64,000 bases of DNA from a bacterium UBP16_UBA6123 (lineage in GTDB: Bacteria > Muiribacteriota > UBA9980), in NCBI GenBank assembly GCA_002423385.1, contig DIVV01000128.1:87-64086 (forward strand). The letters run 5' to 3'. Positions 20,951 through 36,164 of this stretch are shown here, one piece after another (within the stretch, counting starts at the first letter, position 1; each line of letters begins with the position of its first letter). Position numbers and translations under genes: made by a program. A model generated the notes under the pieces. That model ran no database searches. It was not told the origin of the DNA and was given only the letters and a program-made list of their open reading frames with translations.

Positions 20951-21804
20951 TCGACGAGTTCGACGCCAACCGGCTGGTAATCGTCTTTTGTGGCAACGAC
21001 GCCGAAAACTATCCAGCCGCCATTAGCGTTAGCAAATACCGACCATTTTTCCTGATTTTCCCTTGAAGCCGCGAAATCATCGCTAAAAACAATATCGAGG
21101 CTGCCGATTAAAGTTTTTCTGTTTTCAAATGTTCTGGTTATTGCCTCATAAAGATCGCTCATTTTGAGTAGATTGGTTTTGGATAAAAATGCGATATCAT
21201 AGAAATCCTTCATCCTGCTATTTAGAAATCCGAGTTTGGCTACTGCTTCAAGTTTCTCAGAAATGGCGGATGACAAAGAATAAACGTAAATTTCAGGACG
21301 CGGATTTTGTTCCAGTAATACCGGGTATTCAATCAGAACAGGTCCAGAAACTATAACGTCCCCAAATCCCATATCGATTTGGATATTTTTTTCGGCTTTT
21401 TCAAGCGTTGCCGACAGTGTGATTCGCGCCCCGGCGTAATCGGCATCTTTATTTATTTTTTCAATGCTTATGCCTTCACTATTGAAAGTTACGCCGTCTT
21501 CGCAGGTGATCTGAAGAATCTCTTTGATTTTTTTGACAATGCTTTCGGTTTCGTTCGATGTTGACCTTGCAAGTAAATCTATATCTTTGGTCGGCCTGGT
21601 TCCGGCGATTTCATACGAAACGAAAAGCAACGCGCCTTTCAAAACGAATTGCTCGCGATACCTTGAAATTGAAAGCCTGTATAAAAGTCTTTCCTGGAAA
21701 TATTGCGTCAGTATCGAATCGAATATCCGGCCGCCTTTATGGGCCAGGTTCAAAAGTTTCTCTTTTACTGAAGCAGCTGTATTTTTTATAGTTTTCTTAC
21801 TCAA
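20653..21804 (-). CDS. AbiEii/AbiGii-family nucleotidyltransferase toxin (type IV TA), C-terminally fused in frame to AlbA_2 remnant
   Basis: N-terminal about 270 aa match the DUF1814/AbiEii architecture and lie immediately downstream of an AbiEi antitoxin gene. The toxin portion probably ends near 21000; remaining residues derive from the adjacent remnant gene. Confidence 0.55.
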   Translation of the reverse strand: MSKKTIKNTAASVKEKLLNLAHKGGRIFDSILTQYFQERLLYRLSISRYREQFVLKGALLFVSYEIAGTRPTKDIDLLARSTSNETESIVKKIKEILQITCEDGVTFNSEGISIEKINKDADYAGARITLSATLEKAEKNIQIDMGFGDVIVSGPVLIEYPVLLEQNPRPEIYVYSLSSAISEKLEAVAKLGFLNSRMKDFYDIAFLSKTNLLKMSDLYEAITRTFENRKTLIGSLDIVFSDDFAASRENQEKWSVFANANGGWIVFGVVATKDDYQPVGVELVDKVQNDFLSALRADDKVNHDIAYSARRQSICSFIKIMAITAERRSSNFIRMSSGSGIPATYSVTMRTLWNRAKKKRAIRRSRQRSGALHYASRPEPGFA

Positions 21805-21813
21805 TTCATAACC

Positions 21814-22410
21814 TCATTGCTCGACGAGCGCCTTGAGATAAGGAGTTATTATATTTTTCACCCTGCATTTCGCAGCATAATCAAGCAATTTACCGATGTC
21901 ATATTTATTTTTTCTAATATAGTTTTTGAGCCCTTCTATTGCGATATCTTCGCCAATCTTCTTTCTGAACCTGAAAAGATCGCATATGGTTTTTTCGAGT
22001 TCATATACTCTGATGGCGCCTCCGGCGGCAGATGCCTTTATGATTCCCAGCTCATGCAGTCTTTTCGAAAAATAAAAGAAGTTTACAGGCGGGTAAGAAA
22101 GCGTTATTTTTCTGCCGCTGTTGGGAATGGCCGCATAGATAACCGAAGGGTTTTGAAGCGTCATGCCATAATACTCGAGAGCGGAAATCAGACATATCAC
22201 GATCGAAGGATTGGCATTGCATACATCTACCAGTCCGGAATTTTCACGAACATTATAATTCGACAATTTATACAATCCGGGCTTGATCTTGGAAATAACT
22301 TTATCGGCGAGAGCTTTAGCGATATTTCTTGTATATATGCCAGCGGCGACAAGATCTTTTGACCTTGCATATCCCTTATTTTGTTTTAAAAATTTTACCA
22401 GTTTATCCAT
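21814..22410 (-). CDS. AbiEi-family antitoxin / transcriptional regulator (type IV TA)
   Basis: 198 aa; N-terminal wHTH-like (YARSKDLVAAGIYTRNI...GLYKL) and C-terminal LEKTICDL motif typical of AbiEi; 9-nt gap to AbiEii. Confidence 0.65.
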   Translation of the reverse strand: MDKLVKFLKQNKGYARSKDLVAAGIYTRNIAKALADKVISKIKPGLYKLSNYNVRENSGLVDVCNANPSIVICLISALEYYGMTLQNPSVIYAAIPNSGRKITLSYPPVNFFYFSKRLHELGIIKASAAGGAIRVYELEKTICDLFRFRKKIGEDIAIEGLKNYIRKNKYDIGKLLDYAAKCRVKNIITPYLKALVEQ

Positions 22411-22534
22411 AATTTAACCCGCTCGATGATTAGTTTTTACTGTATTTTAATTACATATACATTCATTTCTAATCAAATTATACTATAAAAATTCGAAAAT
22501 TTCAAGTTGTTTATTATTCCTTTAATCAGTTTAT

Positions 22535-22580
22535 AAGAGCCAGCCACTGGATTTGAACCCGCGGCCCCAGGGTTTACGAT
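22535..22580 (-). repeat. Diverged 3' half of a tRNA-Thr gene (putative att-type direct repeat of tRNA-Thr at 46442..46514)
   Basis: gccagccactggatttgaacccgcggccccagggtttacga aligns with gccaaccacgggagtcgaacccgcgacctgcggtttacga of the intact tRNA (about 80% identity from the 3' end through the anticodon), in the same orientation. Confidence 0.5.
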
Positions 22581-23012
22581 TTTGATTTTCGGAGTTGGGT
22601 CAAGTTGGGTTATCTTTGAAAGCCTTTTTTTATCAACGGTTTTATTTTTTACCGTTTAAGTCTGATTAGCGGTCCTTAGGTCTAATTTTGTTAAAAGTGG
22701 TGCCAATTTGGTGCCAAGTTCGATTCAGGTTTTAATAGGGTTTTCAAGGCAAGCGCTTTAAAAACCTTTTATATGTTGGTATTTTCAATAAATCAGTATC
22801 TTCTTTAAGAATTTTTAAGCCTTTAATTCGAAAGCCTTTGTTCATATGTTTAACTTGTATATATACATACTAAAGACAAGATATTACATTTCAGTTTTTT
22901 CCTTGTTTTCCATTATTTACAGCCATGATGAAAGGTATTGCTTAAACTAAAAATATTTGTTATAATAAGTATATATACAAGTTAAAACGAAGGCGGCAAA
23001 GGAAAACGAAAT

Positions 23013-23888
23013 ATGGCTTTATCAAGGCTCGAAGCGGCTAAATCAAATATATTGGAATTTTTCGAATCACAGCCCGAAACCATTTTTAAGCGGACTGCTA
23101 TAGAAAAAATATTTAAAGATAACTTTAAGACCTGGAACCTGGCACACACGATAACCGTCCTTAAATTTATAAATTTTTTAAAGGAACACGGAAAACTTCG
23201 TGAGTTGACGTTTAAGTTTCCCATACAAAAAATCGTCAGATACGTCTGGGGCGGAACACCCTCCTTATACCAAATCGCCTCGACATTTTATCCTGATTCT
23301 TACTTCACCCATTATACGGCGGTTTATTTACACGAACTTACGGACCAGGTCCCCCGGTCCGTCTATATCAACTTCGAACAGCCCGCTAAAGCCTTCCGCG
23401 ACAGCGAATTAGTCCAGGAACGAATCAACCACGCCTTCACCAATAAGCAACGGATAACCAACAATTTCGCCGCTTATGAAGAGTTTAAAATTTATTTATT
23501 GAACGGAATGTATACGAAAAAGACTGGCGTTATTGAAATGACCGGCCCGGATGGTGAAAAAATATCCGTCACCAGCCTCGAACGAACGCTAATCGACATA
23601 ACCGTCAGGCCAGCCTATGCCGGCGGAGTGTTTGAAGTTTTACGGGCATACAAGGCCGCTCGGGAGCGCGTATCGGTTAATAAACTCACGGCTATGCTCA
23701 AACGGCTGAACTACGTCTATCCCTATCATCAGGCCATTGGTTTTTATCTTGAAAAAGCCGGCTACAAAGAAACGCAAATTAATCTTCTGAAAAAATTCGC
23801 CATAGAATTTGATTTTTATCTAACGCACCAGATAAAAGAAAAAGGGTACTCGAAAAAGTGGCGGTTATATTACCCCAGGGGCTTCTAA
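23013..23888 (+). CDS. Orphan AbiEi-like antitoxin-family protein (AbiEi_3/4-like C-terminal domain)
   Basis: 291 aa; SLYQIASTFYPDSYFTHYTAVYLHELTDQVP and SLERTLIDI motifs typical of AbiEi-type regulators; no cognate nucleotidyltransferase downstream. Confidence 0.4.
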   Translation: MALSRLEAAKSNILEFFESQPETIFKRTAIEKIFKDNFKTWNLAHTITVLKFINFLKEHGKLRELTFKFPIQKIVRYVWGGTPSLYQIASTFYPDSYFTHYTAVYLHELTDQVPRSVYINFEQPAKAFRDSELVQERINHAFTNKQRITNNFAAYEEFKIYLLNGMYTKKTGVIEMTGPDGEKISVTSLERTLIDITVRPAYAGGVFEVLRAYKAARERVSVNKLTAMLKRLNYVYPYHQAIGFYLEKAGYKETQINLLKKFAIEFDFYLTHQIKEKGYSKKWRLYYPRGF

Positions 23889-24128: not shown

Positions 24129-24425
24129 CTAATCAAGATTTTTGATTTTATTTTTAGTCCCGCATACCGGACATTTATAAATATTTTTCCACTTCTTTTT
24201 AAACCGCAATCCGCTGTCGTTAGAACTCCTGGAACCCCGATGATAAGTCACAAGGCGTCCATCGAACGTTACATCTTCCACGAGGTCGCATCCGGCGCAT
24301 TTTATGAGCTCGCGTTCATCCATAAACAAACCAAGTTTAGCCGCTTCTTTTTGAAGTGCGGCTATTCGCCTCGCCAGTGGCAGAATACTTGAAAGGAGTT
24401 CGTCATGCACTTTTTTCTTACCCAT
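24129..24425 (-). CDS. Small zinc-ribbon protein, hypothetical
   Basis: 98 aa with CAGC...CPVCG; 49 nt downstream of the AlbA_2/HATPase gene on the same strand. Confidence 0.3.
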   Translation of the reverse strand: MGKKKVHDELLSSILPLARRIAALQKEAAKLGLFMDERELIKCAGCDLVEDVTFDGRLVTYHRGSRSSNDSGLRFKKKWKNIYKCPVCGTKNKIKNLD

Positions 24426-24474: not shown

Positions 24475-26025
24475 TCACGAGATAACTTTTTTACCTTTGT
24501 CGGTCGTAACATATTTTTGTTTGGAACTGTTGGGTTTATCAGGCACGGTTAGTTCGAGCAGGCCATCATCAATCAATGGGACGATATATTTATTCCTGAA
24601 CTTAGTCCTATTATTTAATTGAAACAGCGACATTATTTCTACCATCGACCGTGGCTGAACGCAACATTTAAGGATTTCAAGAGATTCCGAACTTAGTCCC
24701 AACTTAGTCCCAACTTGGTCCCGACTTGGTCCCGACTTGGTGCCGACTTGATGCTGACCGGGTACCAACTTAATGACCGAACGTTTTTCTTCCATCGGGA
24801 ACGTCATCTTGAAATAATAATTAGCGACATTATTATCGATAACCGGCGTCTTATAATTCAGCTGCTTCCATGCGCTAAAAATCTTAAGCATTCCACTGCC
24901 GGCGGTTTCGGCAAATCCTACCATGCGAAAAAGTTTTGCTATCAAGGGATTACGAGGTGCAGTGGCCTCGTTGCTTATTATTTCTTCGACGGTCTTGGGT
25001 GCAGCGCCGGCGTTGTAGGTCTCGATTCTATCGTTAAAAATTCTCATTCTGGCCTGGGTATTGTCGAAGTAGTCACGATGTATTAAAACATTGACCAGGG
25101 CCTCGCGCATGGCAATCACGATAGGAACGTTCTCGGTTCTGGTTATATTGTCAGGTTCCATCATGAAGGGAATCTCGACCTTGCTTTTTATGTAGTTCAT
25201 AGCCTCATAGAAGGTCTGGAAGAGATTGACTTCATAAATCTTCCGGTCATCCCAGCGAATATCAGGAAACCCTTTTTCACGGGAACGTATCAGGTAAATG
25301 TCGAACTCATAGGCCGGAAAACGACTGCGGATACTATCTTCCTTCCCGAATACAAGAAGTCCGGCCATGGTCAGTTCTTCCTTGCCTGAAACCGGATTAA
25401 CTTTCAGACATCCGAGCTTCATAAGCAGTTCCGCCGTTTTTAACTTATGAAAGAGGCTCTCGGGTAGTCTTAATTCAAGCAAATTCTTATATTCTGATAC
25501 TGTTTTCGAATCGATATCCTTGACGCCGTATCCTTCAAGTATCATAGAATCGGAAGAAAACTCTGACGCCTCACGCAACATCCGGTTAACTTCCTCACGG
25601 CTGCATTTATAGTCGCCGCTGCCGCGCCTTATGTATGTATTGCGGATATCGCCGCCGAAGTAAATCGGCTTACAGTTTCGCGGCATCGAGTTTATGTGGA
25701 ACAGCAGGACCTTCTTGCCATCGAAGTCAAGAATATGAGCCTTAGAGGACAGCTGAATATTGAACTTTTCACCGCGCAGAGTTGAAAGAAAGTCATTCTG
25801 AAGCTTTTCGACGTTCTCGACACCGGTAATCTCGAACTTGCCTCCACCATTATCCTTAATACCGAATACAAGATTGCCGCCTTCGGTATTTGAAAATGAG
25901 CTGACGGTTTCCCAGGCGCTCTTCGGCACTTCGTTTTTAGCAGCTTTAACTTCGAAGTCTTCCCATTCGTGCATTTTAAGACGTTCGAGTAAGACTTTCT
26001 TTTTTAAAATGGCGGATATTGGCAT
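24475..26025 (-). CDS. Schlafen-like AlbA_2 + HATPase_c_4 + C-terminal wHTH protein (RecG-C-terminal-like putative regulator/ATP-binding protein)
   Basis: N-terminal ETVSSFSNTEGGNLVFGIKDNGG (AlbA_2), central VNVLIHRDYFDNTQ...ETAGSGMLKI (HATPase_c_4), C-terminal wHTH-like tail; contains a 12-nt tandem repeat at 24688-24785. Confidence 0.6.
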   Translation of the reverse strand: MPISAILKKKVLLERLKMHEWEDFEVKAAKNEVPKSAWETVSSFSNTEGGNLVFGIKDNGGGKFEITGVENVEKLQNDFLSTLRGEKFNIQLSSKAHILDFDGKKVLLFHINSMPRNCKPIYFGGDIRNTYIRRGSGDYKCSREEVNRMLREASEFSSDSMILEGYGVKDIDSKTVSEYKNLLELRLPESLFHKLKTAELLMKLGCLKVNPVSGKEELTMAGLLVFGKEDSIRSRFPAYEFDIYLIRSREKGFPDIRWDDRKIYEVNLFQTFYEAMNYIKSKVEIPFMMEPDNITRTENVPIVIAMREALVNVLIHRDYFDNTQARMRIFNDRIETYNAGAAPKTVEEIISNEATAPRNPLIAKLFRMVGFAETAGSGMLKIFSAWKQLNYKTPVIDNNVANYYFKMTFPMEEKRSVIKLVPGQHQVGTKSGPSRDQVGTKLGLSSESLEILKCCVQPRSMVEIMSLFQLNNRTKFRNKYIVPLIDDGLLELTVPDKPNSSKQKYVTTDKGKKVIS

Positions 26026-26063: not shown

Positions 26064-28469
26064 TCAGTTTTTAGTTAAATTTTTATTTTGGGAAGAGGTT
26101 GAATCATAATAATCATTTAACCACTTAGGCCAAGGCTGAATTTTAAGATACTTCTTTTGAGTCCATTCACAAAGCGGACTAATATTTTGCCAATATAAAC
26201 GCCTTTTTAAAAATTCAGGCTGGTCATTGAGGCTTAACGTCAGTATAGTTTTATTTAAAAACAATTCTTCGCCAGTCAAAATTATTACGTCGTTATAAAG
26301 TTTAGTCTGCTTAAATATATTTCTGTTTAAATTAATAAATTTTTCAAGCAACTCTATTTCTGTTGAATTTAAATTACTTCCTAATTTGGCAAAAACGACA
26401 GTAACTCCGGGAAAACAATTAACTATCGTTTCCATTCGCGAAAAATCATCTTGAGTAAATTCATTATAAGATTTACATTCAACAAATAAGGTATCATAAT
26501 GATTTTCTTCTGAATGCATGTCGGTTTTCACAAACATAGCTAGGTCAACTTCAAAGTTAATTTTTTTATCTTTATTCTTTAAAATTGTTCCAATTATAGG
26601 GGTAGTCTTAAGTTCCAAAATGCTTGAAAAAAACCTTAATGCTAATAAAACAGACAAAGCACCATCAGATTTTTTTATATCGCTAAAAGGGCCGATAACG
26701 CGATACGACCATTTAACATCTTGGGGAGAATGGGATGGTATTTCAAATCTATCTAAGCAATTCGGGCATTGAACTTCATAATCAAAAGTTTTTAATGAAT
26801 GCCAACCACGCTTGCTGCAATGCGGGCATTGGATTTCAACTCCTAACTTTATTATATTCATTTTAATTAAGTCTTGAATTATAACTTTAGGATTATAATT
26901 TTTACTATCGCGACTATTATAGTTTTTGAATATCTTCCCCAACAGTTCATTTTTGCAATTGTTTTCATGATTGTATATCTTGTTAAGTTTCCCATTAAGG
27001 CTCTCTGCATTACAACTGGTTTCCGAAACGTCCGTCAATAATTTGATTAAATCACTTTTAGCTAAAACTGACACTTTATGTAAAGTGCCGACCTGCTTTA
27101 GCATTTGCTTGGCGCTCTTACCTGCTGACGAAAAATCACAATTCCAGTCTCTGCCTCTAAACCAATTCAAAAATATGCTCTCAGAGCTAGGAATTTTCAT
27201 TTCAATTTCTGAATCTAATCGATTTACAAAATATGATATTTCACCTGAATTTTTGACCAAATATTTATTATCAAAAGATGAGAAAAAACTAAGACCATAA
27301 GTATTTAAAGAGCGAGGTAAAACTTCAGGAACTAAAAAATCATCATGATGAATATTTAGTTTGAAATCATTCGAACAATAAATCGGCCGATATTCTGAGT
27401 ATCGATTGATAAAACAAGGCAATAAAGGAGTGATATTTATTGATGAATGGTAATCAGAAAAACTTTGATTTTTATTATCTACTTCGAATCGAGAAAAATT
27501 ATTATTATCTTTATTTATACAAGGAAAAAATAGTTGAATACCAACATCAACCTGAGGTGAAATAGAATTATAATAAGATTTAAATAAACCTGCGATATGC
27601 TTAAGAATTTTATCATCCGAAATTGAACGACTTTTTATAATAAAAACATGGCAACGAACATTATCAGTAAAGAAATCCGGGACATATGCCTTGCAAGCAA
27701 AATCCGCATATTTTTTAATATCGTCATCTGAAAAGTTACTTGGAACAGGCCAGATATTAATTCCTGTTGCACGCAAATTCCAAAAATCAATAATATCGGA
27801 ATAATTTTCTTGGTCAAGCAAATAAAAGTAGTTGTTATGAACTCCATTCTTCGAAAACCTTTTGATATTGAAAGTATTAAGGAATAAGATATAATTATTT
27901 CTCGCTGCGTGCCACTTATAAAACTCATTACTTAAATTCTTTGGACTCTCGGGAAAATTTTGAACGATTCCTTTTAATAATGATTTTTCATTTTCAAACG
28001 CAAGTTTTCCAAATAATGCTGTTAAAAATAATTCATTTTGAACATCAAAAATTGGAATTATCATTTTTTCATACTGTTGTCTCGCATTATCTAATAAATA
28101 GTCACTTATTTCTAAAATATTGCATCCATAAATATTTGTATTTCTGTCAATTAATTCCGAAGAATCAATAATTTTTCGGCTTCCGATTTCAAAGTTTATT
28201 TGGTCAATATCACCAAATTTCACAATAATATCCGGATCAAATGCTTCGATATAGCCCGAAAGAATTTTATCAATATCTTCTACGTCAAAATATTTGTCAC
28301 GCCAAATTTCTGGGATACTATTATAAACCGGAATTATCGGATTATAAATGCCTCCCCAGAGCAATGTATTTATATTTATAGCTTCCAGCAAGACCTTTTT
28401 ATCGCCTGGCGGAACTAAAAAAGCAAATCTCAAAGGTCTAAGAGTTATATCAATGTTTCCATTGGCCAT
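26064..28469 (-). CDS. Large hypothetical protein (801 aa) with paired CxxC zinc ribbon and possible C-terminal PD-(D/E)xK-like motif
   Basis: CPHCSKRGW...CPNCLDRF; near the C-terminus VKTD...(15 aa)...FVECKSY. No P-loop. Very AT-rich. The start lies 4 nt after the stop of the 343-aa gene. Confidence 0.4.
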   Translation of the reverse strand: MANGNIDITLRPLRFAFLVPPGDKKVLLEAININTLLWGGIYNPIIPVYNSIPEIWRDKYFDVEDIDKILSGYIEAFDPDIIVKFGDIDQINFEIGSRKIIDSSELIDRNTNIYGCNILEISDYLLDNARQQYEKMIIPIFDVQNELFLTALFGKLAFENEKSLLKGIVQNFPESPKNLSNEFYKWHAARNNYILFLNTFNIKRFSKNGVHNNYFYLLDQENYSDIIDFWNLRATGINIWPVPSNFSDDDIKKYADFACKAYVPDFFTDNVRCHVFIIKSRSISDDKILKHIAGLFKSYYNSISPQVDVGIQLFFPCINKDNNNFSRFEVDNKNQSFSDYHSSINITPLLPCFINRYSEYRPIYCSNDFKLNIHHDDFLVPEVLPRSLNTYGLSFFSSFDNKYLVKNSGEISYFVNRLDSEIEMKIPSSESIFLNWFRGRDWNCDFSSAGKSAKQMLKQVGTLHKVSVLAKSDLIKLLTDVSETSCNAESLNGKLNKIYNHENNCKNELLGKIFKNYNSRDSKNYNPKVIIQDLIKMNIIKLGVEIQCPHCSKRGWHSLKTFDYEVQCPNCLDRFEIPSHSPQDVKWSYRVIGPFSDIKKSDGALSVLLALRFFSSILELKTTPIIGTILKNKDKKINFEVDLAMFVKTDMHSEENHYDTLFVECKSYNEFTQDDFSRMETIVNCFPGVTVVFAKLGSNLNSTEIELLEKFINLNRNIFKQTKLYNDVIILTGEELFLNKTILTLSLNDQPEFLKRRLYWQNISPLCEWTQKKYLKIQPWPKWLNDYYDSTSSQNKNLTKN

Positions 28470-28473
28470 ATTT

Positions 28474-29505
28474 TCATTCCATCCAATGCCTTGAAGGGGA
28501 TGATATTTTTTTCCCCCTCACAAATTTTAAATGTAGAGCTCTTTTAATCTTAACGTTAAGGAGTTTCATTGCGGACACACTTTTCGAAAGATTGATAATA
28601 TCACTTTGAGATTTTATTACTTTAGTAAGGCGACATATATTATAAAGAATATTAAAAAGAATTTGGTCTGAATTCGCTAAATCATCTGAGTTAATATCCT
28701 TATACTCGCCCGTATGAACGTATTTACATCTTTTCTTGTATAAGCCATCCATAAGTTTTGCCCAATATTCAGTTTCATTATTTGTCATCCATCCAAACAT
28801 CCCAACAACATTATCAATAATATCATCAATTTTGGAGGATAATAATGATTCAATAGCAATCATGTTATATAAAAATGAATCGTGAATTTTATGTGTAAGT
28901 TGACTTTTACCCGCTAAAATTGCAGCATTTCTGATTGAAAATTTCCAATTTTCATTTATAGCGCCGAAATCTTTATTTAATATTTTAATTAAATATGGAA
29001 AAAAATGATTTTTAATGTATTTGGCCCATTTATTATCAAGTAAATATTCACAAGTTGGAAAATGTATGCCCTTGCTTTCAAATAAATCTTTTTGAATATC
29101 GTAACATAAAATTTCATCCTGCAAATTAAGTGTTGCATCAGTATATGGATTGCCAAAAAAATATCTTCTTCTTCTATCTACTCTAAAAAATTGCGAAGAA
29201 GCTAAAATAAAAACAGAATCTTCAATTTGTTTAAACTCTCTGTCGAGTGATACAAGACCGTCATTGTTAGTTTTTATTATCGCATATGTTTCTGCTTTGC
29301 TAAAAAATTTATAGTTAAATATTTTCATCCATTTTTGTTTTTTTACATAAGATGAAATAGGGCTTTTAAATCCTATTTTGTTTCTGATACGCGATATTTT
29401 GTCCGCTGATACGAAACGGACTTGCTCTATCTGATATTCACCTTTTAACTCTTCAGAAATCTTTAAATTATAAATTGGAAAACACAATATCCATTTATTT
29501 GCCAT
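28474..29505 (-). CDS. Hypothetical protein (343 aa) with HEPN-like R-x4-H motif, possibly Abi-like
   Basis: LYKKRCKYVHTGEY matches the Rx4-6H HEPN signature. Start ATG is 1 nt after the brxL stop. Very AT-rich. Confidence 0.35.
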   Translation of the reverse strand: MANKWILCFPIYNLKISEELKGEYQIEQVRFVSADKISRIRNKIGFKSPISSYVKKQKWMKIFNYKFFSKAETYAIIKTNNDGLVSLDREFKQIEDSVFILASSQFFRVDRRRRYFFGNPYTDATLNLQDEILCYDIQKDLFESKGIHFPTCEYLLDNKWAKYIKNHFFPYLIKILNKDFGAINENWKFSIRNAAILAGKSQLTHKIHDSFLYNMIAIESLLSSKIDDIIDNVVGMFGWMTNNETEYWAKLMDGLYKKRCKYVHTGEYKDINSDDLANSDQILFNILYNICRLTKVIKSQSDIINLSKSVSAMKLLNVKIKRALHLKFVRGKKISSPSRHWME

Positions 29506-29506
29506 T

Positions 29507-31534
29507 TTAACTAACCCCCAGCGCCTTAAACACAGCGTCTATCGGGTCGGCATAGAACGAAATCTGGAACTTCGAGAACAGGTCCGCAGGAACGGTCGGA
29601 ATCTGAGATACCGACGACATTGGAAGAAGGATTTTACGGGCACCGGCATCGCAGGCAACCTGTAAGGTATTGGCGAGGTTATCGAGCGAAGCGATGGTGC
29701 CGCCCAGGGTCATCGAACCTATAACGGCCATCTGTTCCTGAATGGGTTTATTTAAGATGCCCGAGCATAAAGTAATAAGGGTGGTCAGGGATAGTTCATC
29801 AGAGGCGCCAGCCCCCTGAAGGTCGATGATATGAATCATGAAGTCTTTATTATCGGTCTTTATGGTGGCGCTGATTCGCGATGCGTTAGCCTTGAAATAG
29901 TTAAAGCCCGTGTTGATGCTTTCCTTTACATTAACTGACTTTCCAGCGCCGGTCTTAACGAATTTACCAGAACCATCCAGGATTTGAAGTTCGAGTTTAT
30001 AAACGCCGAACATATCGCTGTCGCCGCGAGCAACGGTATAGATATGTCCGGCCTTGCCTACCCCTTCCGGAATGAGAACATTGCCGCCCTGTTCCGGCAC
30101 TGAAACGAAAAACTCGTCGAAGGATTCGTTATCGATATACGAGAAATGGACATCGTAAAATTCCATTCCGCCGAGCTTCTTTAATTGTTCTTTTATCCTG
30201 CGGCGGGTTTCAAGCGCATAGGTCAGGCATTCCTTAACGTTGTCGATAGTATATTTTTCGTCGGGGAATAGAAGTTTAAGCATCCCCGAAACAGTCTTTT
30301 TAACCGCTATAACGTCACGCTGGTTAAGATTGCTGCCGAGTTTAAAGAATTTAGTAATAGAGTCAGAGAAATTACGCTTACGCATTTCTCTTAAGAACTC
30401 AGCAAGATAATCGACAATGAATCCGAACTTATTGGTAAAATACTCAGGTCGCATCTTGGGTATTTCCCAGCCGGGTATATAGTTATGGAACCTATCGAAG
30501 AAAGCCGTATCAATCATCGTTTCAGGAAATGGCTCGAACAGGTGGGATGTCTTTACAAGAGTTTCGACGCTCTGGTTAATATTGCCGACGAACACCATAG
30601 AAGCATTGGCAGAAATGGCATCCTTGCCTCGCGCGAAGGAACCGGACGCCATAAAATCCTTCATAATCTGAACGCCGTCTCGGTCTTTAAACGATATTCC
30701 GGCGACCTCATCAAAAGCCACTACATCCCAGAGCCCGACAAGTCCGACGGTCTTGGAGGCCATATTATAAAACAGGTTCGCCACCGTCGTCTGCCCGCCC
30801 GAAACGAGAATCGAATTGGGCGAAATTTCTTTATAGATATGAGACTTACCCGTTCCTCGCGGCCCAAGTTCACAAAGATTATAATTATTTTCGCATAGCG
30901 GAATCATTCGTGCGAGCAGATGCCACTTCTCACGGTATTTAAACTGTTCGGGCTCCATGCCCACCGAGCGCAGCAGAACGTCAATCCATTCTTCTTTCGT
31001 AAACTTCTTACGCCCTTCAAAGACTTCGTCCATATCCATGTTAGGCATCTGGATAGGCTTCAGGCTCTGTATTTCAAACGGCGAATGAAATTTCGTATCG
31101 TCATTGAAGTTATATTCGATTTGCAGAATACACCATATTCCGCCCGCAAGAAGTTTTTCGAACTCCTTTACATAGTTCGCGGAAACTTCTACGTCCTTAA
31201 TCCCCAGGTTTAAAAGGGTAGCGACATACATATCTTTTTTTTCGTTGAGCCTGACGGTAACTTTATCAATTATTGAATAGCGGCCGGATTCTTTTATCTT
31301 CGACTTGACCTTTTCGGCTTCATCGGGCCGGACATAATTTTCCGCCAGAATCTTTTTAACGCTCTTAACGCCTTCGGTTATCTCGTCTTCGTTAGACGTG
31401 GCGCAATACATTCCAAGAAGATACTCAAGAACGTAAACAGGAACGTTCGCACCTTCTTTAATAAGTTTCGTAAGGTCTTTGCGGACGACCTTTCCAGGAA
31501 ATACCTCATTTAATTTCAAATCAAGAACATCCAT
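29507..31534 (-). CDS. brxL: BREX system Lon protease-like protein BrxL
   Basis: 675 aa; N-terminal ATPase-like region (GPRGTGKSH) and C-terminal Lon proteolytic-like domain (DLQGAGASDELSLTTLITLCSGIL...VIGSMTLGGTI); follows pglZ. Confidence 0.8.
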   Translation of the reverse strand: MDVLDLKLNEVFPGKVVRKDLTKLIKEGANVPVYVLEYLLGMYCATSNEDEITEGVKSVKKILAENYVRPDEAEKVKSKIKESGRYSIIDKVTVRLNEKKDMYVATLLNLGIKDVEVSANYVKEFEKLLAGGIWCILQIEYNFNDDTKFHSPFEIQSLKPIQMPNMDMDEVFEGRKKFTKEEWIDVLLRSVGMEPEQFKYREKWHLLARMIPLCENNYNLCELGPRGTGKSHIYKEISPNSILVSGGQTTVANLFYNMASKTVGLVGLWDVVAFDEVAGISFKDRDGVQIMKDFMASGSFARGKDAISANASMVFVGNINQSVETLVKTSHLFEPFPETMIDTAFFDRFHNYIPGWEIPKMRPEYFTNKFGFIVDYLAEFLREMRKRNFSDSITKFFKLGSNLNQRDVIAVKKTVSGMLKLLFPDEKYTIDNVKECLTYALETRRRIKEQLKKLGGMEFYDVHFSYIDNESFDEFFVSVPEQGGNVLIPEGVGKAGHIYTVARGDSDMFGVYKLELQILDGSGKFVKTGAGKSVNVKESINTGFNYFKANASRISATIKTDNKDFMIHIIDLQGAGASDELSLTTLITLCSGILNKPIQEQMAVIGSMTLGGTIASLDNLANTLQVACDAGARKILLPMSSVSQIPTVPADLFSKFQISFYADPIDAVFKALGVS

Positions 31535-31553: not shown

Positions 31554-34196
31554 TTAAAAATCGTCAAAGTCGTTTCCAATCCCAATATTGATATTGTAGA
31601 TTTCTTTCATGTATTCGCTATCCGTATCGACATCGTTGGCTACAAGATAATAATTCCTGCTCTTTTCATAGTTTCCGTTCTTAACGGTCAATTGAATTTT
31701 TTTCTCGCGTTCGTCGGCGTTCTTCGATGCGCTGTCGAACACAATCGTTTTCGAATCACTTATCATCCTGTAAATACCATCAGGCGTTATATCATATAAA
31801 GCAATAGAGAGTTCGCGCGGCTTAAGTTTATCCTCTAACCTATCCTTCTGAAACAAGGTAACGCTGAATCGATTATTAGTTATCTTACGCATCGTCGAAG
31901 TCAGCGTTATATCGACCTTACGCTGCGGTATTCCATCTAATTTCTTTCCTTTAATGTGCCGACAGCTGATTACCGGAATAACGACTTCCTGAAGCGAAGC
32001 TCCGCCATGGACATAATTGACGCCGCCGCCCTGAGCCTTAAACCGGTTGTTGCCATTTGGGACTATCACCGAAAGCCCCGAATTTTGTTTGCCGAGGTAA
32101 TCGAGGACTATATTAAGCGTTCCTTCCTGCCCATTGAGATGTTTACCCAGCATAAAACGCTTATTTTTGCTTATATAGTTTGAACTATCGACTTCAACCC
32201 TGTCGCTCTCTTCGAGCGGCTTCCGGCTATATATAAAACCGTGGTCAGAAGTTATTACGATATTATTGCCGTTGAGATTCATTATCTTCTTGACGCCGGC
32301 AATCAATCTGTTTATGGCATTTTCAACCGCCTCAAAAACTTGAGCCTCGCTCTGAGGATTATCGCCTATGGAATCAATAGAATCGTCGTAAACATAAAAT
32401 ACACGATTTTCAGATACAAATTTTCTTCCGTTATCGCTATTCATGGCCATAAGTTCATCAATCTTAATGGCGACCGAATCGGGTCGCTTTTCTTTAAGGA
32501 TTTTATCCCTGTTGTCGATTCCGGAAGAGTCAAGGTCATTTACCGTTACATGACCGTTATCGGTCACTCTAATAGCCTCTCTGACGTGTTTAAGGGGTAA
32601 TAACGATGCCATGCCCAGTTGAGTATATGATGGGATGACTCCGAGCATCGACGTCAGAGTGATTTCAGTCCTCGTTTCTTTATCGATGCGGCGGGAAAGT
32701 TCTTCTGCAATTTCAAAACGAAGGCCGTCCGATATAATAATAAAAATTTTATCGCGGTCGTTTTTATCCAGAACGGGAATTTCGATATGCTCCCTGTAGA
32801 ACTCGAACTGCCTTTTAATGCCTTCGAGTTTCAGGTCCCAGCTCTGCAATTGCTTTCCGGCGATAGTGTTTTCTTCCTTCACCAAAGCGGTCCACTCACT
32901 TGACAGGTTAAACAGATACCAATTAACGTAAAGGTCTTCGACTCTTTCAACGAGATTCTTCAAGATATCGGCCACCTTAGTTTTAGCGTAGTAGAAGTAA
33001 AAATTTCTGTATGCCTGGTCAAACTTATAGTAATCCGAGCAGTATCCCTTAAAAAATTCATTGACGGTCGCATGTTTGAAGCCGTCATTATACTTCGATT
33101 TCAACTCGAAAAGGTCAATGGCGGCATTAATCGCAAGATAAATATCAGAGTAGTTTTCATACCAGGTCATGTTACGGCGCTTTTCAATGATGCCCCTGAA
33201 TTTTTCATGGTCGGCGGAACCTTCAAGCAGTCCATTAATGATGCTCAGAATAACCGCCTTATCTATAATATCGAATGTCGAGCACTCTAAATAGTCTTTA
33301 ACGTCGAGGCCTTTAATAACATTTTTAAAATTTATTTCGCTTTCTATTTCAACCGCGAATTGCCGGTATGAAGTTCCGTCAATTTTATGATTAACCCAGT
33401 TATCAACGAATACATGAGCATTGTTATGAACGGCCAGCAGGAACTTGTTAAGGGCGGCCGGAAAAGCCAGGCCGCGATAATCGTTATGGAAATGGGTAAT
33501 CAAAAAGCATATCATTAAATTTTTAAGCGATTTCTTATCGGTTTTGTAGCCATATTTACGTTCGACCAGCAACCAGAACTTATTAATTTCATAATACTTT
33601 TGAATATCCTGGTAATTGTCGTTGCTTTCGGCTTCGAGCCCTCCGGATAAAACGGCGCGGACGATACTATCGGCATCAGTGTTTTTAATGCCTGACAGAA
33701 CCGCCATAAAACAAAGGGCAAGCTCCGCTTCGTTGATATCCTGATTGATAAGCGCTTTAATCGCCTGGTACCGCTTAGAACTATCAAAAAACTTAAGATT
33801 ATTCTGGATTACCTGTCTTAATGAACGGTCATGCAATCCAAGGTCATTATAAATGACCGAAGCCTTATCAGCTGAAAACTCATCTGAATATAAATAAATA
33901 TCCAGCAGCCAGTTCTCATCGTCCGGCGGCTTCGCTTCAGGCGAATAAACGATGATGTTTTTAGATTTCAATTCTTTTTCAATCAGATGTTTAACCTGAA
34001 ACTCATTTTTTTCGACGGTGATTTTTTCAAACCCGGCGATATCGAGCGCATCAAAGTCTTCACGAAACGCGGCTCCATCGTCATACCAGAATATGACCTG
34101 CCGGGCTTTACCGTGTTTCTGGCTGTGCTTACTTATTAAAATTTCTATCCCCTGTTTGATTTTATCTAAGTTCAATTTTAAACTCCTAGCGCTCAA
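31554..34196 (-). CDS. pglZ: BREX alkaline-phosphatase-superfamily protein PglZ
   Basis: 880 aa; PglZ domain hallmarks IVITSDHGF and NYVHGGASLQEVVIPV. Confidence 0.85.
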   Translation of the reverse strand: MSARSLKLNLDKIKQGIEILISKHSQKHGKARQVIFWYDDGAAFREDFDALDIAGFEKITVEKNEFQVKHLIEKELKSKNIIVYSPEAKPPDDENWLLDIYLYSDEFSADKASVIYNDLGLHDRSLRQVIQNNLKFFDSSKRYQAIKALINQDINEAELALCFMAVLSGIKNTDADSIVRAVLSGGLEAESNDNYQDIQKYYEINKFWLLVERKYGYKTDKKSLKNLMICFLITHFHNDYRGLAFPAALNKFLLAVHNNAHVFVDNWVNHKIDGTSYRQFAVEIESEINFKNVIKGLDVKDYLECSTFDIIDKAVILSIINGLLEGSADHEKFRGIIEKRRNMTWYENYSDIYLAINAAIDLFELKSKYNDGFKHATVNEFFKGYCSDYYKFDQAYRNFYFYYAKTKVADILKNLVERVEDLYVNWYLFNLSSEWTALVKEENTIAGKQLQSWDLKLEGIKRQFEFYREHIEIPVLDKNDRDKIFIIISDGLRFEIAEELSRRIDKETRTEITLTSMLGVIPSYTQLGMASLLPLKHVREAIRVTDNGHVTVNDLDSSGIDNRDKILKEKRPDSVAIKIDELMAMNSDNGRKFVSENRVFYVYDDSIDSIGDNPQSEAQVFEAVENAINRLIAGVKKIMNLNGNNIVITSDHGFIYSRKPLEESDRVEVDSSNYISKNKRFMLGKHLNGQEGTLNIVLDYLGKQNSGLSVIVPNGNNRFKAQGGGVNYVHGGASLQEVVIPVISCRHIKGKKLDGIPQRKVDITLTSTMRKITNNRFSVTLFQKDRLEDKLKPRELSIALYDITPDGIYRMISDSKTIVFDSASKNADEREKKIQLTVKNGNYEKSRNYYLVANDVDTDSEYMKEIYNINIGIGNDFDDF

Positions 34197-34854
34197 ACCA
34201 TAGCCTTAAAGTCTCTACAAATTTATTGAAAGCCCTATCTTGACAACCATTTACGCTAACTTTTTCGGCAATTTCTTTATATATCGAGGAAGAGCGTGGC
34301 TTTTTGATTTTTTGCAATACCGCTTCAAGAGCTTCTTTAGGGCGTTGAGGCTTAATTTGCTGTAAATTTTTAATGAATCCTTCATTTAAGAGCCATTGTT
34401 GTAATCCGACTGGCTGATTTCTCCAGCCGATAATTCCACTTAAACAAGGCGAGTTACTCCAAACCCAATTTTCAAGTTCAGGGTAAATAGCAATTACTTC
34501 TGAACGGTCCGCCCAGCCATTTTGCCTTAGTTTCACCTTGATTTTTTCTTCAATTTCTTCCACACTTTTATCTTCACTTCCACTCCCTTCATAGTCAAAT
34601 AGCATTAAAGCATATTTATATCTTGAAGAAAGAGGCATTAAGAAATCAACCCCATTTTTACAACATCCAGGGTCATGCCCCGGATGAGTGAAAATATCGA
34701 ATTTATCTCTGGCAATTGATATTCCAAGCGATGTTTGCCTATTTAATAACAAACTATTTATTGATTCTTTCATCGTATTATCTGCAACAAGAACAACAAG
34801 TTCTTTTTCTTTCTCGACAGGTAAAGCAATACCTTTTTGAAAAATTTTTTTCAT
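34186..34854 (-). CDS. Hypothetical 222-aa protein, partner of the upstream AAA ATPase (possible DUF4276/RloB/Toprim-like effector)
   Basis: Start ATG shares one nucleotide with the ATPase stop (TAATG at 34852-34856); overlaps pglZ start by 11 nt; no confident motif match. Confidence 0.35.
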   Translation of the reverse strand: MKKIFQKGIALPVEKEKELVVLVADNTMKESINSLLLNRQTSLGISIARDKFDIFTHPGHDPGCCKNGVDFLMPLSSRYKYALMLFDYEGSGSEDKSVEEIEEKIKVKLRQNGWADRSEVIAIYPELENWVWSNSPCLSGIIGWRNQPVGLQQWLLNEGFIKNLQQIKPQRPKEALEAVLQKIKKPRSSSIYKEIAEKVSVNGCQDRAFNKFVETLRLWFER

Positions 34855-36110: not shown

Positions 36111-36164
36111 CCTCTAAAACTAACTTTTAAAATATGGCATTATAATTACCTTAGAACCTTATTA

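What the first reader, a model, noticed from the sequence alone, without database searches (positions are those of the whole stretch)
26064..29505. Two uncharacterised genes fused onto the 3' end of the BREX operon directly after brxL
A 343-aa gene begins 1 nt after the brxL stop and an 801-aa gene begins 4 nt after that. This spacing implies co-transcription and translational coupling with a canonical type 1 BREX operon. Both are much more AT-rich than the BREX genes, suggesting a separately acquired cassette. The 343-aa protein carries an R-x4-H (KKRCKYVH) HEPN-type motif. The 801-aa protein carries a double CxxC zinc ribbon and a C-terminal D...ExK (VKTD-15aa-FVECK) arrangement reminiscent of PD-(D/E)xK nucleases, with no ATPase motif. 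This is the architecture expected of an HEPN RNase plus nuclease/sensor abortive-infection pair, but I cannot match it to any named system.
Basis: partly seen in the sequence, partly recalled or inferred. Interest (0 to 1): 0.85.

Follow-up and report, generated by a model that had tools for sequence, protein, structure and literature searches.

The report
Two stacked nuclease genes after BREX
Two AT-rich genes joined to the end of a BREX anti-phage operon are real, but they are two unrelated stand-alone nuclease genes (a predicted HEPN RNase and a large zinc-ribbon/restriction-type DNase from a widespread unnamed family), not a matched pair.

Summary
On the minus strand, a 343-aa gene (A, 28474-29505) starts 1 nt after the brxL stop. 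An 801-aa gene (B, 26064-28469) starts 4 nt after A. Both have about 29-30% GC, against 44-46% for the flanking genes.

The pair reading fails. No A relative lies in 80 B loci, and no B relative lies in 61 A loci. A sister BREX (BrxL 94% identical) lacks both genes.

Each family is a stand-alone gene in defence or mobile contexts. B sits between hsdS and hsdM in four type I R-M operons, and inside a second, distant BREX. B's family is large (5377 clusters at 50% identity) yet has no Pfam, NCBIfam or PADLOC model.

A 2026 paper already describes BREX loci that carry auxiliary HEPN and PD-(D/E)xK nucleases. This is therefore a new variant of a known pattern.

The parts
29507..31534 (-). brxL, the last core gene of the type 1 BREX operon. 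The operon also holds brxA 44605-45273, brxB 44027-44599, brxC 40438-44001, pglX 36917-40420 and pglZ 31554-34196.
   Evidence: PADLOC BrxL E=0. Pfam BrxL_N, BrxL_ATPase and Lon_C. The other core genes are confirmed.
29506..29506 (-). Single-base spacer between the brxL stop (TAA) and the gene A start (ATG).
   Evidence: Read directly from the sequence. No terminator-like site here.
28474..29505 (-). Gene A, 343 aa: a stand-alone HEPN-domain protein with an uncharacterised N-terminal alpha/beta region (residues 1 to about 158).
   Evidence: ORF. Homologues. AF2 model pLDDT 80, pTM 0.83. dN/dS 0.20.
28546..29028 (-). HEPN-like helical domain of A (residues about 160-320).
28714..28731 (-). RCKYVH, the R259-x4-H264 predicted catalytic motif of A.
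   Evidence: R259 and H264 are invariant in 17 homologues. It is the only Rx4-6H in the protein.
28470..28473 (-). Four-base spacer between the gene A stop (TGA) and the gene B start (ATG).
   Evidence: Read directly from the sequence.
26064..28469 (-). Gene B, 801 aa: a multidomain protein of a large unnamed family.
   Evidence: ORF. 5377 clusters at 50% identity with E<=1e-3, and the top 150 are all about 800 aa. 448 relatives among the GTDB species representatives. AF2 model pLDDT 77.6, pTM 0.78. dN/dS 0.195.
27135..28469 (-). N-terminal module of B. Residues 1 to about 300 are Rossmann-like alpha/beta. Residues about 305-445 are beta-rich. It carries invariant R11-P12, W38-G39-G40, P44, F77, D80, G154, W230-N231 and R233. 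No known relatives.
26862..27131 (-). Helical linker of B (residues about 447-536) with invariant S447 and G450. Residues 484-524 are modelled with low confidence.
26700..26852 (-). Zinc ribbon of B (residues about 540-590). C548, C551, C568 and C571 are encoded at 26757-26828.
   Evidence: All four Cys are invariant. Weak hits to Pfam and NCBIfam zinc-ribbon families. Beta-hairpins in the model.
26265..26693 (-). PD-(D/E)xK (restriction-endonuclease-like) domain of B (residues about 593-735). The predicted catalytic residues E640, D642, E664 and K666 are encoded at 26472-26552.
24475..26025 (-). Context: a 516-aa Schlafen/AlbA_2 + HATPase_c_4 + wHTH gene, 38 nt after B, with BREX-like GC. It is not part of the AT-rich cassette.
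   Evidence: Pfam hits. GC 0.444. A GGAG lies upstream of its ATG. This architecture is reported next to BREX in at least 1017 taxa (PMC12839542).

Best explanation
Genes A and B are two independent single-gene nuclease effectors acquired by horizontal transfer. They have been stacked into the variable slot at the 3' end of a type 1 BREX operon and are most likely transcribed with it.

Gene A:
- It is a stand-alone HEPN-superfamily protein.
- Its helical C-terminal domain carries the invariant Rx4H dyad that makes the RNase active site in this superfamily.
- Its N-terminal alpha/beta region most likely keeps the RNase off until an infection cue appears.
- When active, it would cut host RNA (tRNA or mRNA), stop growth and abort the infection.

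Gene B:
- It is a one-chain sensor-nuclease.
- A conserved orphan N-terminal module of about 450 residues is the likely sensor or regulator.
- A helical linker and a 4-Cys zinc ribbon are the likely nucleic-acid grips.
- A C-terminal PD-(D/E)xK domain is the likely metal-dependent DNase that cuts invading or cellular DNA.

Neither protein needs the other or needs BREX, because both families mostly occur alone. Placement behind brxL gives co-expression and a second line of defence if BREX is evaded.

What is shown: gene structure, composition, folds, motifs, family distribution and lack of co-occurrence.
What is inferred: co-transcription, nuclease activities, triggers and any anti-phage role.
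For: Structure and coupling:
- Same strand, 1-nt and 4-nt spacers, no terminator.

Foreign origin:
- GC3 is 0.23 and 0.25 against 0.52 and 0.51 in the flanking genes.
- A BREX with 94%-identical BrxL has neither gene and has different cargo in the pglX-pglZ slot.

A is HEPN:
- R259 and H264 are invariant.
- Three family members weakly hit three HEPN Pfam families.
- A homologue on a Legionella conjugative plasmid is annotated 'HEPN domain-containing protein'.

B is zinc ribbon plus REase:
- Invariant C548/C551/C568/C571, E640 and D642, and near-invariant E664 and K666.
- Strand order in the model.

Independence of A and B:
- 0 A relatives in 80 B loci, and 0 B relatives in 61 A loci.
- No recurrent partner for either family.

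Defence and mobile context for B:
- 31 of 80 loci have R-M, Schlafen-kinase, recombinase or integrase genes within 6 kb.
- Immediate neighbours are enriched for Eco57I/N6_Mtase, HsdS, HsdM, ResIII, GmrSD, AAA_15/21, HNH and transposases.
- B is embedded as hsdR-hsdS-B-hsdM, in the two most tightly packed cases (L031, L048) with stop/start overlaps of 4 nt and spacers of 5 nt or less, in L031, L036, L040 and L048.
- B is embedded between pglX and pglZ of a distant BREX in L034.

Defence and mobile context for A:
- Inside a DISARM-like SNF2-helicase/MmeI-type methylase/DEAD-helicase operon (L128).
- Next to type ISP, KAP NTPase and PRTase-CE genes.
- Next to HicAB, Dcm-Vsr and SIR2.

Other support:
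- Both genes are under purifying selection (dN/dS 0.20).
- Published framework: BREX loci widely carry auxiliary HEPN, PD-(D/E)xK, Schlafen and OLD-ABC nucleases (PMC12839542).
- A single-protein HEPN effector gated by a ligand pocket is shown for ApeA (bioRxiv 10.64898/2026.01.26.701840).
Against: - No experiment supports any activity or any anti-phage effect.
- Neither protein hits any PADLOC-DB 2.0 model.
- One A relative (P0012) sits among housekeeping genes near dnaA, so the defence context is not universal.
- 49 of 80 B loci showed none of the eight labelled neighbour families within 6 kb.
- Foldseek found nothing significant in PDB for B.
- Two B relatives (P0053, P0056) lack the ExK residues.
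- dN/dS of 0.20 is about ten times looser than for brxL (0.016).
- A and B share composition and a low dS (0.15 and 0.20, against 0.49 and 1.09 for the flanking genes). In this lineage they have therefore travelled together, which leaves some room for a local functional link.
Confidence: 0.6

Rival explanations
1. A and B are guards tied to the methylation-based system they sit in, like PrrC in a type I R-M locus. They stay silent while the BREX (or Hsd) complex is intact. They fire when a phage anti-restriction protein disables that complex.
For: - B is embedded in type I R-M operons between hsdS and hsdM in four loci (stop/start overlaps of 4 nt in L031 and L048), and inside a second, distant BREX.
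- A sits inside a DISARM-like methylase/helicase operon in L128.
- Here both genes are coupled to brxL.
- PMC12839542 proposes such backup effectors for BREX.
- The PrrC/EcoprrI precedent is from my own knowledge of the literature and was not checked here.
Against: - Most members of both families have no R-M or BREX gene beside them, so any guard function cannot depend on one specific partner complex.
- The host systems differ (BREX, type I, type ISP, DISARM-like) and share no protein that a guard could bind.
- Embedding in R-M loci is common for unrelated defence genes and may only reflect insertion-tolerant slots.
Confidence: 0.17
2. A and B form an obligate two-component abortive-infection system, with B as sensor or nuclease and A as HEPN RNase effector, or in a toxin/antitoxin-like relation.
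For: - The spacer is 4 nt, the strand is the same and the composition is the same.
- Both genes have a similarly low dS against the sister strain, lower than the flanking genes, so they have moved or persisted as one block.
- The arrangement is kept in a strain about 8% diverged.
Against: - 0 of 80 B loci hold an A relative, and 0 of 61 A loci hold a B relative.
- Both families have constant length and occur alone on plasmids and chromosomes.
- The only co-occurrence is within one lineage.
Confidence: 0.1
3. B is a modification-dependent (type IV-like) restriction endonuclease that complements BREX and R-M by cutting phage DNA carrying hypermodified bases. The N-terminal module reads the modification.
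For: - The architecture (N-terminal reader, C-terminal PD-(D/E)xK, no methylase, no ATPase) fits single-chain type IV enzymes.
- Neighbours include type I R-M and GmrSD genes, as in immigration-control regions.
- BREX plus a type IV enzyme (GmrSD) is a documented complementary pairing (cited in PMC12839542).
Against: - The AspBHI and MspJI matches have rmsd of 13-27 A, so they reflect the nuclease core only.
- The best structural matches are ligand-gated nucleases (Card1, Can2), not type IV enzymes.
Confidence: 0.08
4. The genes are not immune genes. They are cargo or maintenance functions of a mobile element (for example a recombination-associated nuclease and an addiction toxin), or they are decaying passengers.
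For: - Serine recombinases, integrases and DDE transposases recur near B.
- Both families occur on plasmids.
- dN/dS is relaxed relative to brxL.
- One A relative sits in a housekeeping region.
Against: - No mobile-element gene is a fixed neighbour of either family.
- In the window no recombinase or transposase gene was recognised among the neighbouring genes examined, which are other defence genes (BREX, OLD-type ATPase plus MAD4, Schlafen-kinase, AbiEi/AbiEii); terminal repeats were not searched for.
- The ORFs are intact in two diverged strains with dN/dS well below 1.
- Catalytic motifs are invariant across phyla.
Confidence: 0.05

Closest known systems
Auxiliary or 'backup' nuclease effectors linked to BREX loci (PMC12839542, NAR 2026)
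   Same: That survey reports stand-alone HEPN RNases, PD-(D/E)xK REases with N-terminal sensor modules, Schlafen-kinase-wHTH proteins and OLD-type ABC ATPases encoded within or next to BREX core operons. The window shows all four classes:
- A.
- B.
- The 516-aa Schlafen gene.
- The AAA_21 + MAD4 pair between pglX and pglZ.
   Different: - I found no sign in the text or the held supplements of that paper that these two particular families were described. A supplement search for HEPN and zinc-ribbon terms gave nothing relevant.
- Neither family has a Pfam, NCBIfam or PADLOC model.
- The paper treats such genes as functionally integrated with BREX. Here both families are mostly found away from BREX.
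ApeA (Gao_Ape; Apea-like HEPN, PF18739)
   Same: It is a single-polypeptide HEPN anti-phage effector. In ApeA the HEPN RNase cuts tRNA anticodon loops and is switched on by a small ligand bound in a pocket outside the active site (bioRxiv 10.64898/2026.01.26.701840). A has the same logic on paper: an extra non-catalytic region plus HEPN, no partner gene, and defence-island contexts.
   Different: - A does not match the HEPN_Apea Pfam model or any PADLOC model.
- Only one of 17 relatives gives a sub-threshold hit (E 0.014).
- A's oligomeric state, ligand and RNA target are unknown.
Card1 / Can2 / Can1 (CARF plus PD-(D/E)xK nucleases of type III CRISPR)
   Different: - No sequence similarity.
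- No DUF1887 or CARF Pfam hit.
- No CRISPR-Cas or cyclase families among the 25 commonest Pfam families of B's immediate neighbours.
- B is twice as long and has a zinc ribbon, a beta-rich middle domain and an orphan N-terminal region.
Shedu (SduA, DUF4263 nuclease with variable N-terminal sensors)
   Same: It is a single-gene defence nuclease with a variable N-terminal sensing part and a C-terminal PD-(D/E)xK. It has been linked to BREX neighbourhoods (PMC12839542).
   Different: - No DUF4263 Pfam hit and no PADLOC SduA hit.
- B's N-terminal module is conserved across the family rather than variable.
PrrC / RloC-type nucleases embedded in type I R-M loci (comparison from my own knowledge, not checked here)
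   Same: The position matches. B lies between hsdS and hsdM in four loci, and behind or inside BREX in two. A latent nuclease nested in a methylation-based restriction operon is the PrrC arrangement.
   Different: - PrrC and RloC are ABC-ATPase plus HEPN-like anticodon RNases.
- B has no ATPase motif and a DNase-type fold.
- Most B genes are not next to R-M genes.

Membership tests
HEPN superfamily (gene A) | All-alpha HEPN helical-bundle fold | tested here: met
HEPN superfamily (gene A) | Conserved Rx4-6H motif | tested here: met
   R259 and H264 (RCKYVH) are invariant in 17 homologues at 28-43% identity. It is the only such motif in the protein.
HEPN superfamily (gene A) | Metal-independent endoRNase activity | not testable with these tools
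   This needs purified protein or in vivo RNA analysis.
ApeA / Apea-like HEPN (gene A) | Match to the family profile (Pfam PF18739; PADLOC ApeA models) | tested here: not met
   The window protein gives no hit at E<=0.1 in Pfam or PADLOC. One of 17 relatives hits HEPN_Apea at E 0.014, below the family threshold.
PD-(D/E)xK nuclease superfamily (gene B, C-terminus) | Alpha-beta-beta-beta-alpha-beta core fold | tested here: met
PD-(D/E)xK nuclease superfamily (gene B, C-terminus) | Catalytic D ... (D/E)xK on the second and third core strands | tested here: met
   D642 (with E640) is invariant on strand 638-648. E664 and K666 are at least 90% conserved on strand 658-666. Superposition on a known active site could not be checked.
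Card1/Can2 family (gene B) | CARF (DUF1887) sensor domain and linkage to type III CRISPR-Cas | tested here: not met
   No CARF or DUF1887 hit in Pfam for the whole protein or for the N-terminal 300 residues of 16 members. No cas genes among the commonest neighbour families.
Shedu (gene B) | DUF4263 nuclease domain / PADLOC SduA profile | tested here: not met
   No hit at E<=0.1.
Type 1 BREX core | The operon holds brxA, brxB, brxC, pglX, pglZ and brxL | tested here: met
   All six genes give strong PADLOC or Pfam hits.
Type 1 BREX core | A and B are conserved components of BREX operons | tested here: not met
   A BREX with 94%-identical BrxL lacks both. Only 1 of 80 other B loci holds a full set of BREX genes, and no A locus does.
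Two-gene A+B system | Conserved co-occurrence and adjacency of the two families | tested here: not met
   hmmsearch with the A profile in 80 B loci gave 0 hits. The B profile in 61 A loci gave 0 hits. Limits: only the best 80 of 448 B loci were fetched, and many A contigs are short.
Type IV (modification-dependent) restriction enzymes (gene B) | A recognisable modified-base reader domain (SRA, EVE, PUA-like and so on) | tested here: inconclusive
   None was detected, but the N-terminal 450 residues are an orphan module of unknown function.
PrrC-like guard nucleases | Nested inside a restriction-modification operon | tested here: met
   hsdR-hsdS-B-hsdM in L031, L036, L040 and L048. pglX-...-B-...-pglZ in L034. 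This holds for a minority of the family only.
PrrC-like guard nucleases | ABC-type ATPase domain coupled to an anticodon nuclease | tested here: not met
   B has no Walker A motif. The nuclease fold is REase-type, not HEPN.

The most novel reading that the evidence does not exclude
Gene B stands for a large, phylum-spanning, so far unnamed family of single-chain immune nucleases. Its conserved orphan N-terminal module of about 450 residues (invariant R-P, WGG-P, FDPD and WNLR motifs) is a new kind of infection sensor or enzymatic domain. The family is repeatedly recruited into methylation-based restriction operons (type I R-M between hsdS and hsdM, type ISP, BREX) as a second-line effector that fires when those systems are evaded. 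Gene A would be a separate new HEPN abortive-infection family.
Probability: 0.25. Interest if true: 0.72.

Novelty: new variant of a known kind. Interest (0 to 1): 0.48.

Why it matters
The general pattern of extra nucleases riding on BREX operons was published in 2026, so the locus itself is not surprising.

The useful result concerns gene B:
- Its family has thousands of diverged members (5377 clusters at 50% identity).
- It is found in 448 of about 185,600 species representatives, across many bacterial phyla and at least one archaeon.
- Its 800-residue architecture is constant.
- Its N-terminal half matches nothing in Pfam or PDB.
- It is repeatedly nested inside restriction-type operons.

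That makes B a concrete, cheap-to-test candidate for a new single-gene anti-phage nuclease with an unknown sensing domain.

The analysis also shows that tight spacing and shared composition do not make two defence genes a system. Here the adjacency is confined to one lineage.

Tried and rejected
1. Sequence-profile searches of A, of B, and of B's N-terminal and C-terminal sub-alignments. Pfam, NCBIfam and PADLOC were searched with the whole proteins; the sub-alignments were searched against Pfam and PDB sequences only. Nothing was found beyond weak zinc-ribbon hits and three sub-threshold HEPN hits.
2. Foldseek of the B model against PDB gave no hit at E<=1e-3. The AFDB50 library was not available, so no comparison with predicted structures was possible.
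3. Pair hypothesis. I searched 80 B loci for A and 61 A loci for B, and found none. Rejected as a conserved system.
4. Search for a fixed partner of either family by clustering all neighbours within 6 kb. There is none: the commonest neighbour family is in 9 of 80 B loci and in 4 of 61 A loci.
5. Walker-A-like 'AAILAGKS' in A. Rejected as a P-loop because it lies inside a predicted helix and the Lys is Q or R in several homologues.
6. MADS link. Neighbours of B hit PADLOC mad2 and mad5 models. However, the MADS authors themselves class MAD2 and MAD5 as R-M-like and non-diagnostic (bioRxiv 10.1101/2023.03.30.534895), and B hits no mad model. It was not pursued as MADS membership.
7. Promoter scan. 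Promoter-like sites were 34 against 25.4 +/- 4.5 expected, which is uninformative in AT-rich DNA.
8. Literature searches for a description of the B family or of genes between hsdS and hsdM found nothing relevant. This is not proof of absence.
9. The two unknown genes flanking B inside the L034 BREX have no PDB sequence relatives.

Full report
**1. Observation**

All genes of interest are on the minus strand.
- brxL occupies 29507-31534.
- A 343-aa ORF (gene A) occupies 28474-29505, and an 801-aa ORF (gene B) occupies 26064-28469.
- The sequence reads ...GTT AGT TAA a ATG GCA... at the brxL/A junction and ...ATG GAA TGA aaat ATG GCC... at the A/B junction. The spacers are therefore 1 nt and 4 nt.
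- The upstream operon is a complete type 1 BREX. BrxA, BrxB, BrxC, PglX, PglZ and BrxL all match PADLOC or Pfam models with E-values from 1e-42 down to 0.
- A and B are strongly AT-rich: GC 0.287 and 0.304, GC3 0.230 and 0.252.
- brxL has GC 0.455 and GC3 0.522. The gene after B has GC 0.444 and GC3 0.509.
- No terminator-like hairpin lies between brxL, A and B. The excess of promoter-like matches is not meaningful in such AT-rich DNA.

**2. The genes are real**

- Both have full-length homologues.
- A metagenome contig from a sister strain (L087) carries the same brxL-A-B-Schlafen order. Amino-acid identities are 98.6%, 92.7%, 91.4% and 93.4%.
- dN/dS against that strain is 0.20 for A and 0.195 for B. 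This is purifying selection, although looser than for brxL (0.016) or the Schlafen gene (0.03).
- dS is only 0.15 (A) and 0.20 (B), against 0.49 (brxL) and 1.09 (Schlafen gene). This may mean the A-B block was exchanged between the two lineages more recently than its flanks. It may also partly reflect the extreme base composition. I leave it unexplained.

**3. Gene A**

- Pfam, NCBIfam and PADLOC give no hit.
- An alignment of 17 homologues (28-43% identical to A) shows 22 invariant positions. They include R259 and H264 of RCKYVH, plus D280, N285 and N289 in the next helix.
- The AlphaFold2 model is good (pLDDT 80, pTM 0.83). It shows an N-terminal alpha/beta region, a disordered stretch (about 120-150) and six helices from residue 185 to 315.
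- When all 17 members are scanned at a lax threshold, the three best Pfam hits are three different HEPN families, at E about 0.01 each and in three different members.
- A homologue on a Legionella longbeachae conjugative plasmid is annotated by its depositor's pipeline as 'HEPN domain-containing protein'.
- I conclude that A belongs to the HEPN superfamily but to none of the profiled families. This includes ApeA, whose models it does not match.

**4. Gene B**

There are again no family hits except weak zinc-ribbon matches.

An alignment of 37 homologues (18-33% identical to B, apart from the 91%-identical orthologue P0020 of the sister strain) has these conserved positions:
- Invariant: R11, P12, W38, G39, G40, P44, F77, D80, G154, W230, N231, R233, S447, G450, C548, C551, C568, C571, G603, E640, D642.
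- Near-invariant: E664 and K666.

The model (pLDDT 77.6, pTM 0.78) has these parts:
- Rossmann-like alpha/beta units at residues 1 to about 300.
- A beta-rich region at about 305-445.
- Helices at 447-536, partly low confidence.
- Beta-hairpins carrying the four Cys at 540-590.
- An alpha-beta-beta-beta-alpha-beta unit at 604-695. D642 sits on its second strand, and E664 and K666 on its third. This is the classical PD-(D/E)xK layout.

Structure comparisons:
- These are followed by FokI, N.BspD6I, R.BspD6I, HindIII, AspBHI, NucS and other restriction-type nucleases.
The conserved one is D642.
- The N-terminal 300 residues match nothing in PDB sequences or Pfam, even at E up to 10 for PDB and 1 for Pfam.
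- Foldseek finds no significant PDB match for the whole chain.

**5. Family size and spread**

- An exhaustive profile search finds 5377 clusters (50% identity) with E<=1e-3 and 1505 with E<=1e-30. The best 150 are nearly all full-length proteins of about 800 residues, the exceptions being shorter and mostly partial sequences.
- A pattern scan of one genome per species finds 448 relatives. The phyla include Poribacteria, Planctomycetota, Chloroflexota, Verrucomicrobiota, Patescibacteria, Acidobacteriota, Nitrospirota and Pseudomonadota, plus a Methanosarcinales archaeon.
- Family A is smaller in the searches I could run: 60 clusters at 90% identity, all about 350 residues, and 61 metagenome loci.

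**6. Are A and B a pair?**

- I called ORFs in the 80 best B loci (10 kb either side where available) and searched them with the A profile. There were no hits.
- I did the reverse in 61 A loci. There were no hits.
- Clustering all neighbours within 6 kb shows no recurrent partner for either family.
- A relatives stand alone in several settings:
  - next to HicAB, Dcm-Vsr and SIR2 genes;
  - on a conjugative plasmid near RelE and a type I-F CRISPR locus;
  - in one case among housekeeping genes near dnaA.
- A B relative stands alone on a Photobacterium plasmid.
- The only A-B adjacency is in the window's own lineage.
- A BREX operon whose BrxL is 94% identical (L152) ends at brxL and is followed by an unrelated secreted protein. 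It also carries different cargo between pglX and pglZ: a TIR_2-like protein and a DUF1016/YhcG nuclease.
- So A and B are variable cargo of a BREX slot, and the pair model is not supported.

**7. Context of each family**

For B, these neighbours recur within 6 kb, and at least 31 of the 80 loci carry one or more of them:

| Neighbour | Loci of 80 |
|---|---|
| HsdM-type methylase | 9 |
| Type ISP-like methylase-nuclease | 7 |
| Serine recombinase | 6 |
| Schlafen-kinase | 5 |
| Integrase | 5 |
| HsdR | 5 |
| HsdS | 5 |

- Among immediate neighbours, the commonest Pfam families are Eco57I, N6_Mtase, Methylase_S, ResIII, GmrSD_N and HsdM_N.
- In four loci (L031, L036, L040, L048) B sits directly after hsdS (hsdR-hsdS-B-hsdM where the contig extends far enough); in L031 and L048 the stop and start codons overlap by 4 nt or the spacer is 5 nt or less.
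- In L034 (a Verrucomicrobiaceae genome) B lies between pglX and pglZ of a distantly related type 1 BREX, with BrxL 49% and PglZ 29% identical to the window's.
- For A, L128 shows it with a stop/start overlap inside a DISARM-like operon: SNF2 helicase, MmeI-type methylase, A, an unknown gene, and a DEAD helicase.
- Other A loci have type ISP, KAP NTPase, PRTase-CE or primase-polymerase genes nearby.

**8. Comparison with published work**

- PMC12839542 (NAR 2026) reports stand-alone HEPN RNases, PD-(D/E)xK nucleases (some with N-terminal sensor modules), Schlafen-kinase-wHTH proteins and OLD-type ABC ATPases. It finds them recurrently encoded within or next to BREX core operons and interprets them as auxiliary or backup effectors.
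- The window is a textbook case. Besides A and B, it has an AAA_21/OLD-type ATPase and a MAD4-family protein between pglX and pglZ.
- It also has a Schlafen/HATPase_c_4/wHTH gene right after B, and AbiEi/AbiEii further on.
- For A, the nearest characterised analogue in logic is ApeA. ApeA is a single-protein HEPN tRNase switched on by deoxydinucleotides bound in a separate pocket (bioRxiv 10.64898/2026.01.26.701840). A is not a member of that family by profile.
- For B, the nearest analogues are sensor-REase fusions (Card1/Can2, Shedu). B lacks their defining domains and contexts.

**9. Most likely mechanism**

The steps below are inferred, not shown.
- The BREX promoter, or promoters inside it, drive a long transcript that continues through A, B and probably the Schlafen gene.
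- The very short spacers allow translation to re-initiate from gene to gene.
- A is held inactive by its N-terminal region or its oligomeric state. After a phage cue, its Rx4H site cleaves cellular RNA and stops growth.
- B binds nucleic acid through the helical and zinc-ribbon segment, and cleaves DNA with the D642/E664/K666 site under control of the conserved N-terminal module.
- The strict conservation of R11-P12, WGG-P, FDPD and WNLR in that module points to a defined pocket or active site, not to a passive scaffold.
- Both act independently of each other and of BREX, adding layers that a BREX-evading phage must also overcome.
- My confidence in this overall picture is about 0.6.
- The rivals are a PrrC-like guard tied to the host restriction system (0.17), an obligate A-B pair (0.10), a type IV-like reading for B (0.08) and a non-immune mobile-element function (0.05).

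**10. Limits**

- Only the best 80 of 448 B loci were examined. ORFs in fetched loci were called mechanically, and many A contigs are only 1-5 kb long.
- Defence-island enrichment was not compared with a matched background.
- No experiment exists for either family, as far as the searches here could find.

**11. Verdict**

- The 'pair' interpretation is not supported.
- The phenomenon is a published pattern. The two families, and especially B with its orphan N-terminal half and its habit of nesting in restriction operons, appear undescribed and are worth a direct phage-challenge test.
- Novelty: new variant of a known kind. Interest: 0.48.

Noticed in passing
window 34186-36920 (minus strand): Three AT-rich genes are inserted between pglX and pglZ of the BREX operon:
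- A 251-aa unknown gene (36165-36920, GC 0.287), whose start overlaps the pglX stop.
- A 418-aa AAA_21/AAA_15 OLD-type ATPase (34854-36110). Its best PADLOC hits are HEC-01A and mad3.
- A 222-aa protein (34186-34854) that passes the NCBIfam equivalog cut-off for MADS protein MAD4 (213 bits against 160).

This is a second cargo slot of the same operon. pglX itself is also low in GC (0.348).
   Followed up: partly
window 24475-26025 (minus strand): A 516-aa Schlafen/AlbA_2 + HATPase_c_4 + Fic-like C-terminal wHTH protein lies 38 nt after B, with a GGAG before its ATG. Its GC is BREX-like (0.444), so A and B look inserted between brxL and this gene. The same architecture recurs within 6 kb of B relatives in 5 of 80 loci.
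   Followed up: partly
window 26064-31534 compared with L087: Synonymous divergence from the sister strain is much lower in A (0.15) and B (0.20) than in the flanking brxL (0.49) and Schlafen gene (1.09). Either the A-B block was exchanged recently between the lineages, or the extreme AT bias distorts dS. This is unexplained.
   Followed up: no
L152 1154-3069: A BREX with 94%-identical BrxL carries different cargo between pglX and pglZ: a 264-aa TIR_2-like protein (E 3.4e-5, below the Pfam cut-off) and a DUF1016/YhcG PD-(D/E)xK nuclease. Nothing defence-like follows brxL. This is a clear example of slot-wise cargo exchange between near-identical BREX backbones.
   Followed up: partly
L034 8631-13371: In a Verrucomicrobiaceae genome a B relative sits between pglX and pglZ of a distant type 1 BREX. 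It is flanked by a 407-aa gene and a gene of about 320 aa, neither of which has PDB sequence relatives. The same 407-aa-size gene precedes B in L019.
   Followed up: partly
L037 272-889: A weak homologue (23% identity, E 1.7e-10) of the window's 251-aa unknown gene (36165-36920) lies about 1 kb upstream of a B relative in a Syntrophobacteraceae contig. This may hint at a link between that small protein and B, or it may be chance.
   Followed up: no
window 20095-23888: The defence island continues downstream:
- AbiEi (21814-22410) and AbiEii (20653-21804).
- A second, divergent AbiEi-like gene on the plus strand (23013-23888).
- A short PLDc_2 fragment (20095-20415).
- A 176-aa HATPase_c_4 fragment (20333-20863). 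It overlaps the end of the AbiEii ORF and looks like the remnant of a second Schlafen-kinase gene.
   Followed up: partly
window 24129-24425 (minus strand): A 98-aa ORF just after the Schlafen gene has two Cys pairs (CAGC...CPVC). It is called as a gene in the identical metagenome contig (L088) and has no Pfam hit.
   Followed up: no
window 45303-45770 (minus strand): A 155-aa lysine- and alanine-rich, histone-H1-like ORF lies directly upstream of brxA. It has no PADLOC or Pfam hit. It could be a nucleoid-associated or regulatory protein of the island.
   Followed up: no
window 28903-28926 (gene A residues 194-201): 'AAILAGKS' fits the loose Walker A pattern, and G199 and S201 are invariant in the family. 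However, it lies inside the first predicted HEPN helix and the Lys varies (Q or R). It is probably a structural or active-site-adjacent motif and not a P-loop.
   Followed up: partly
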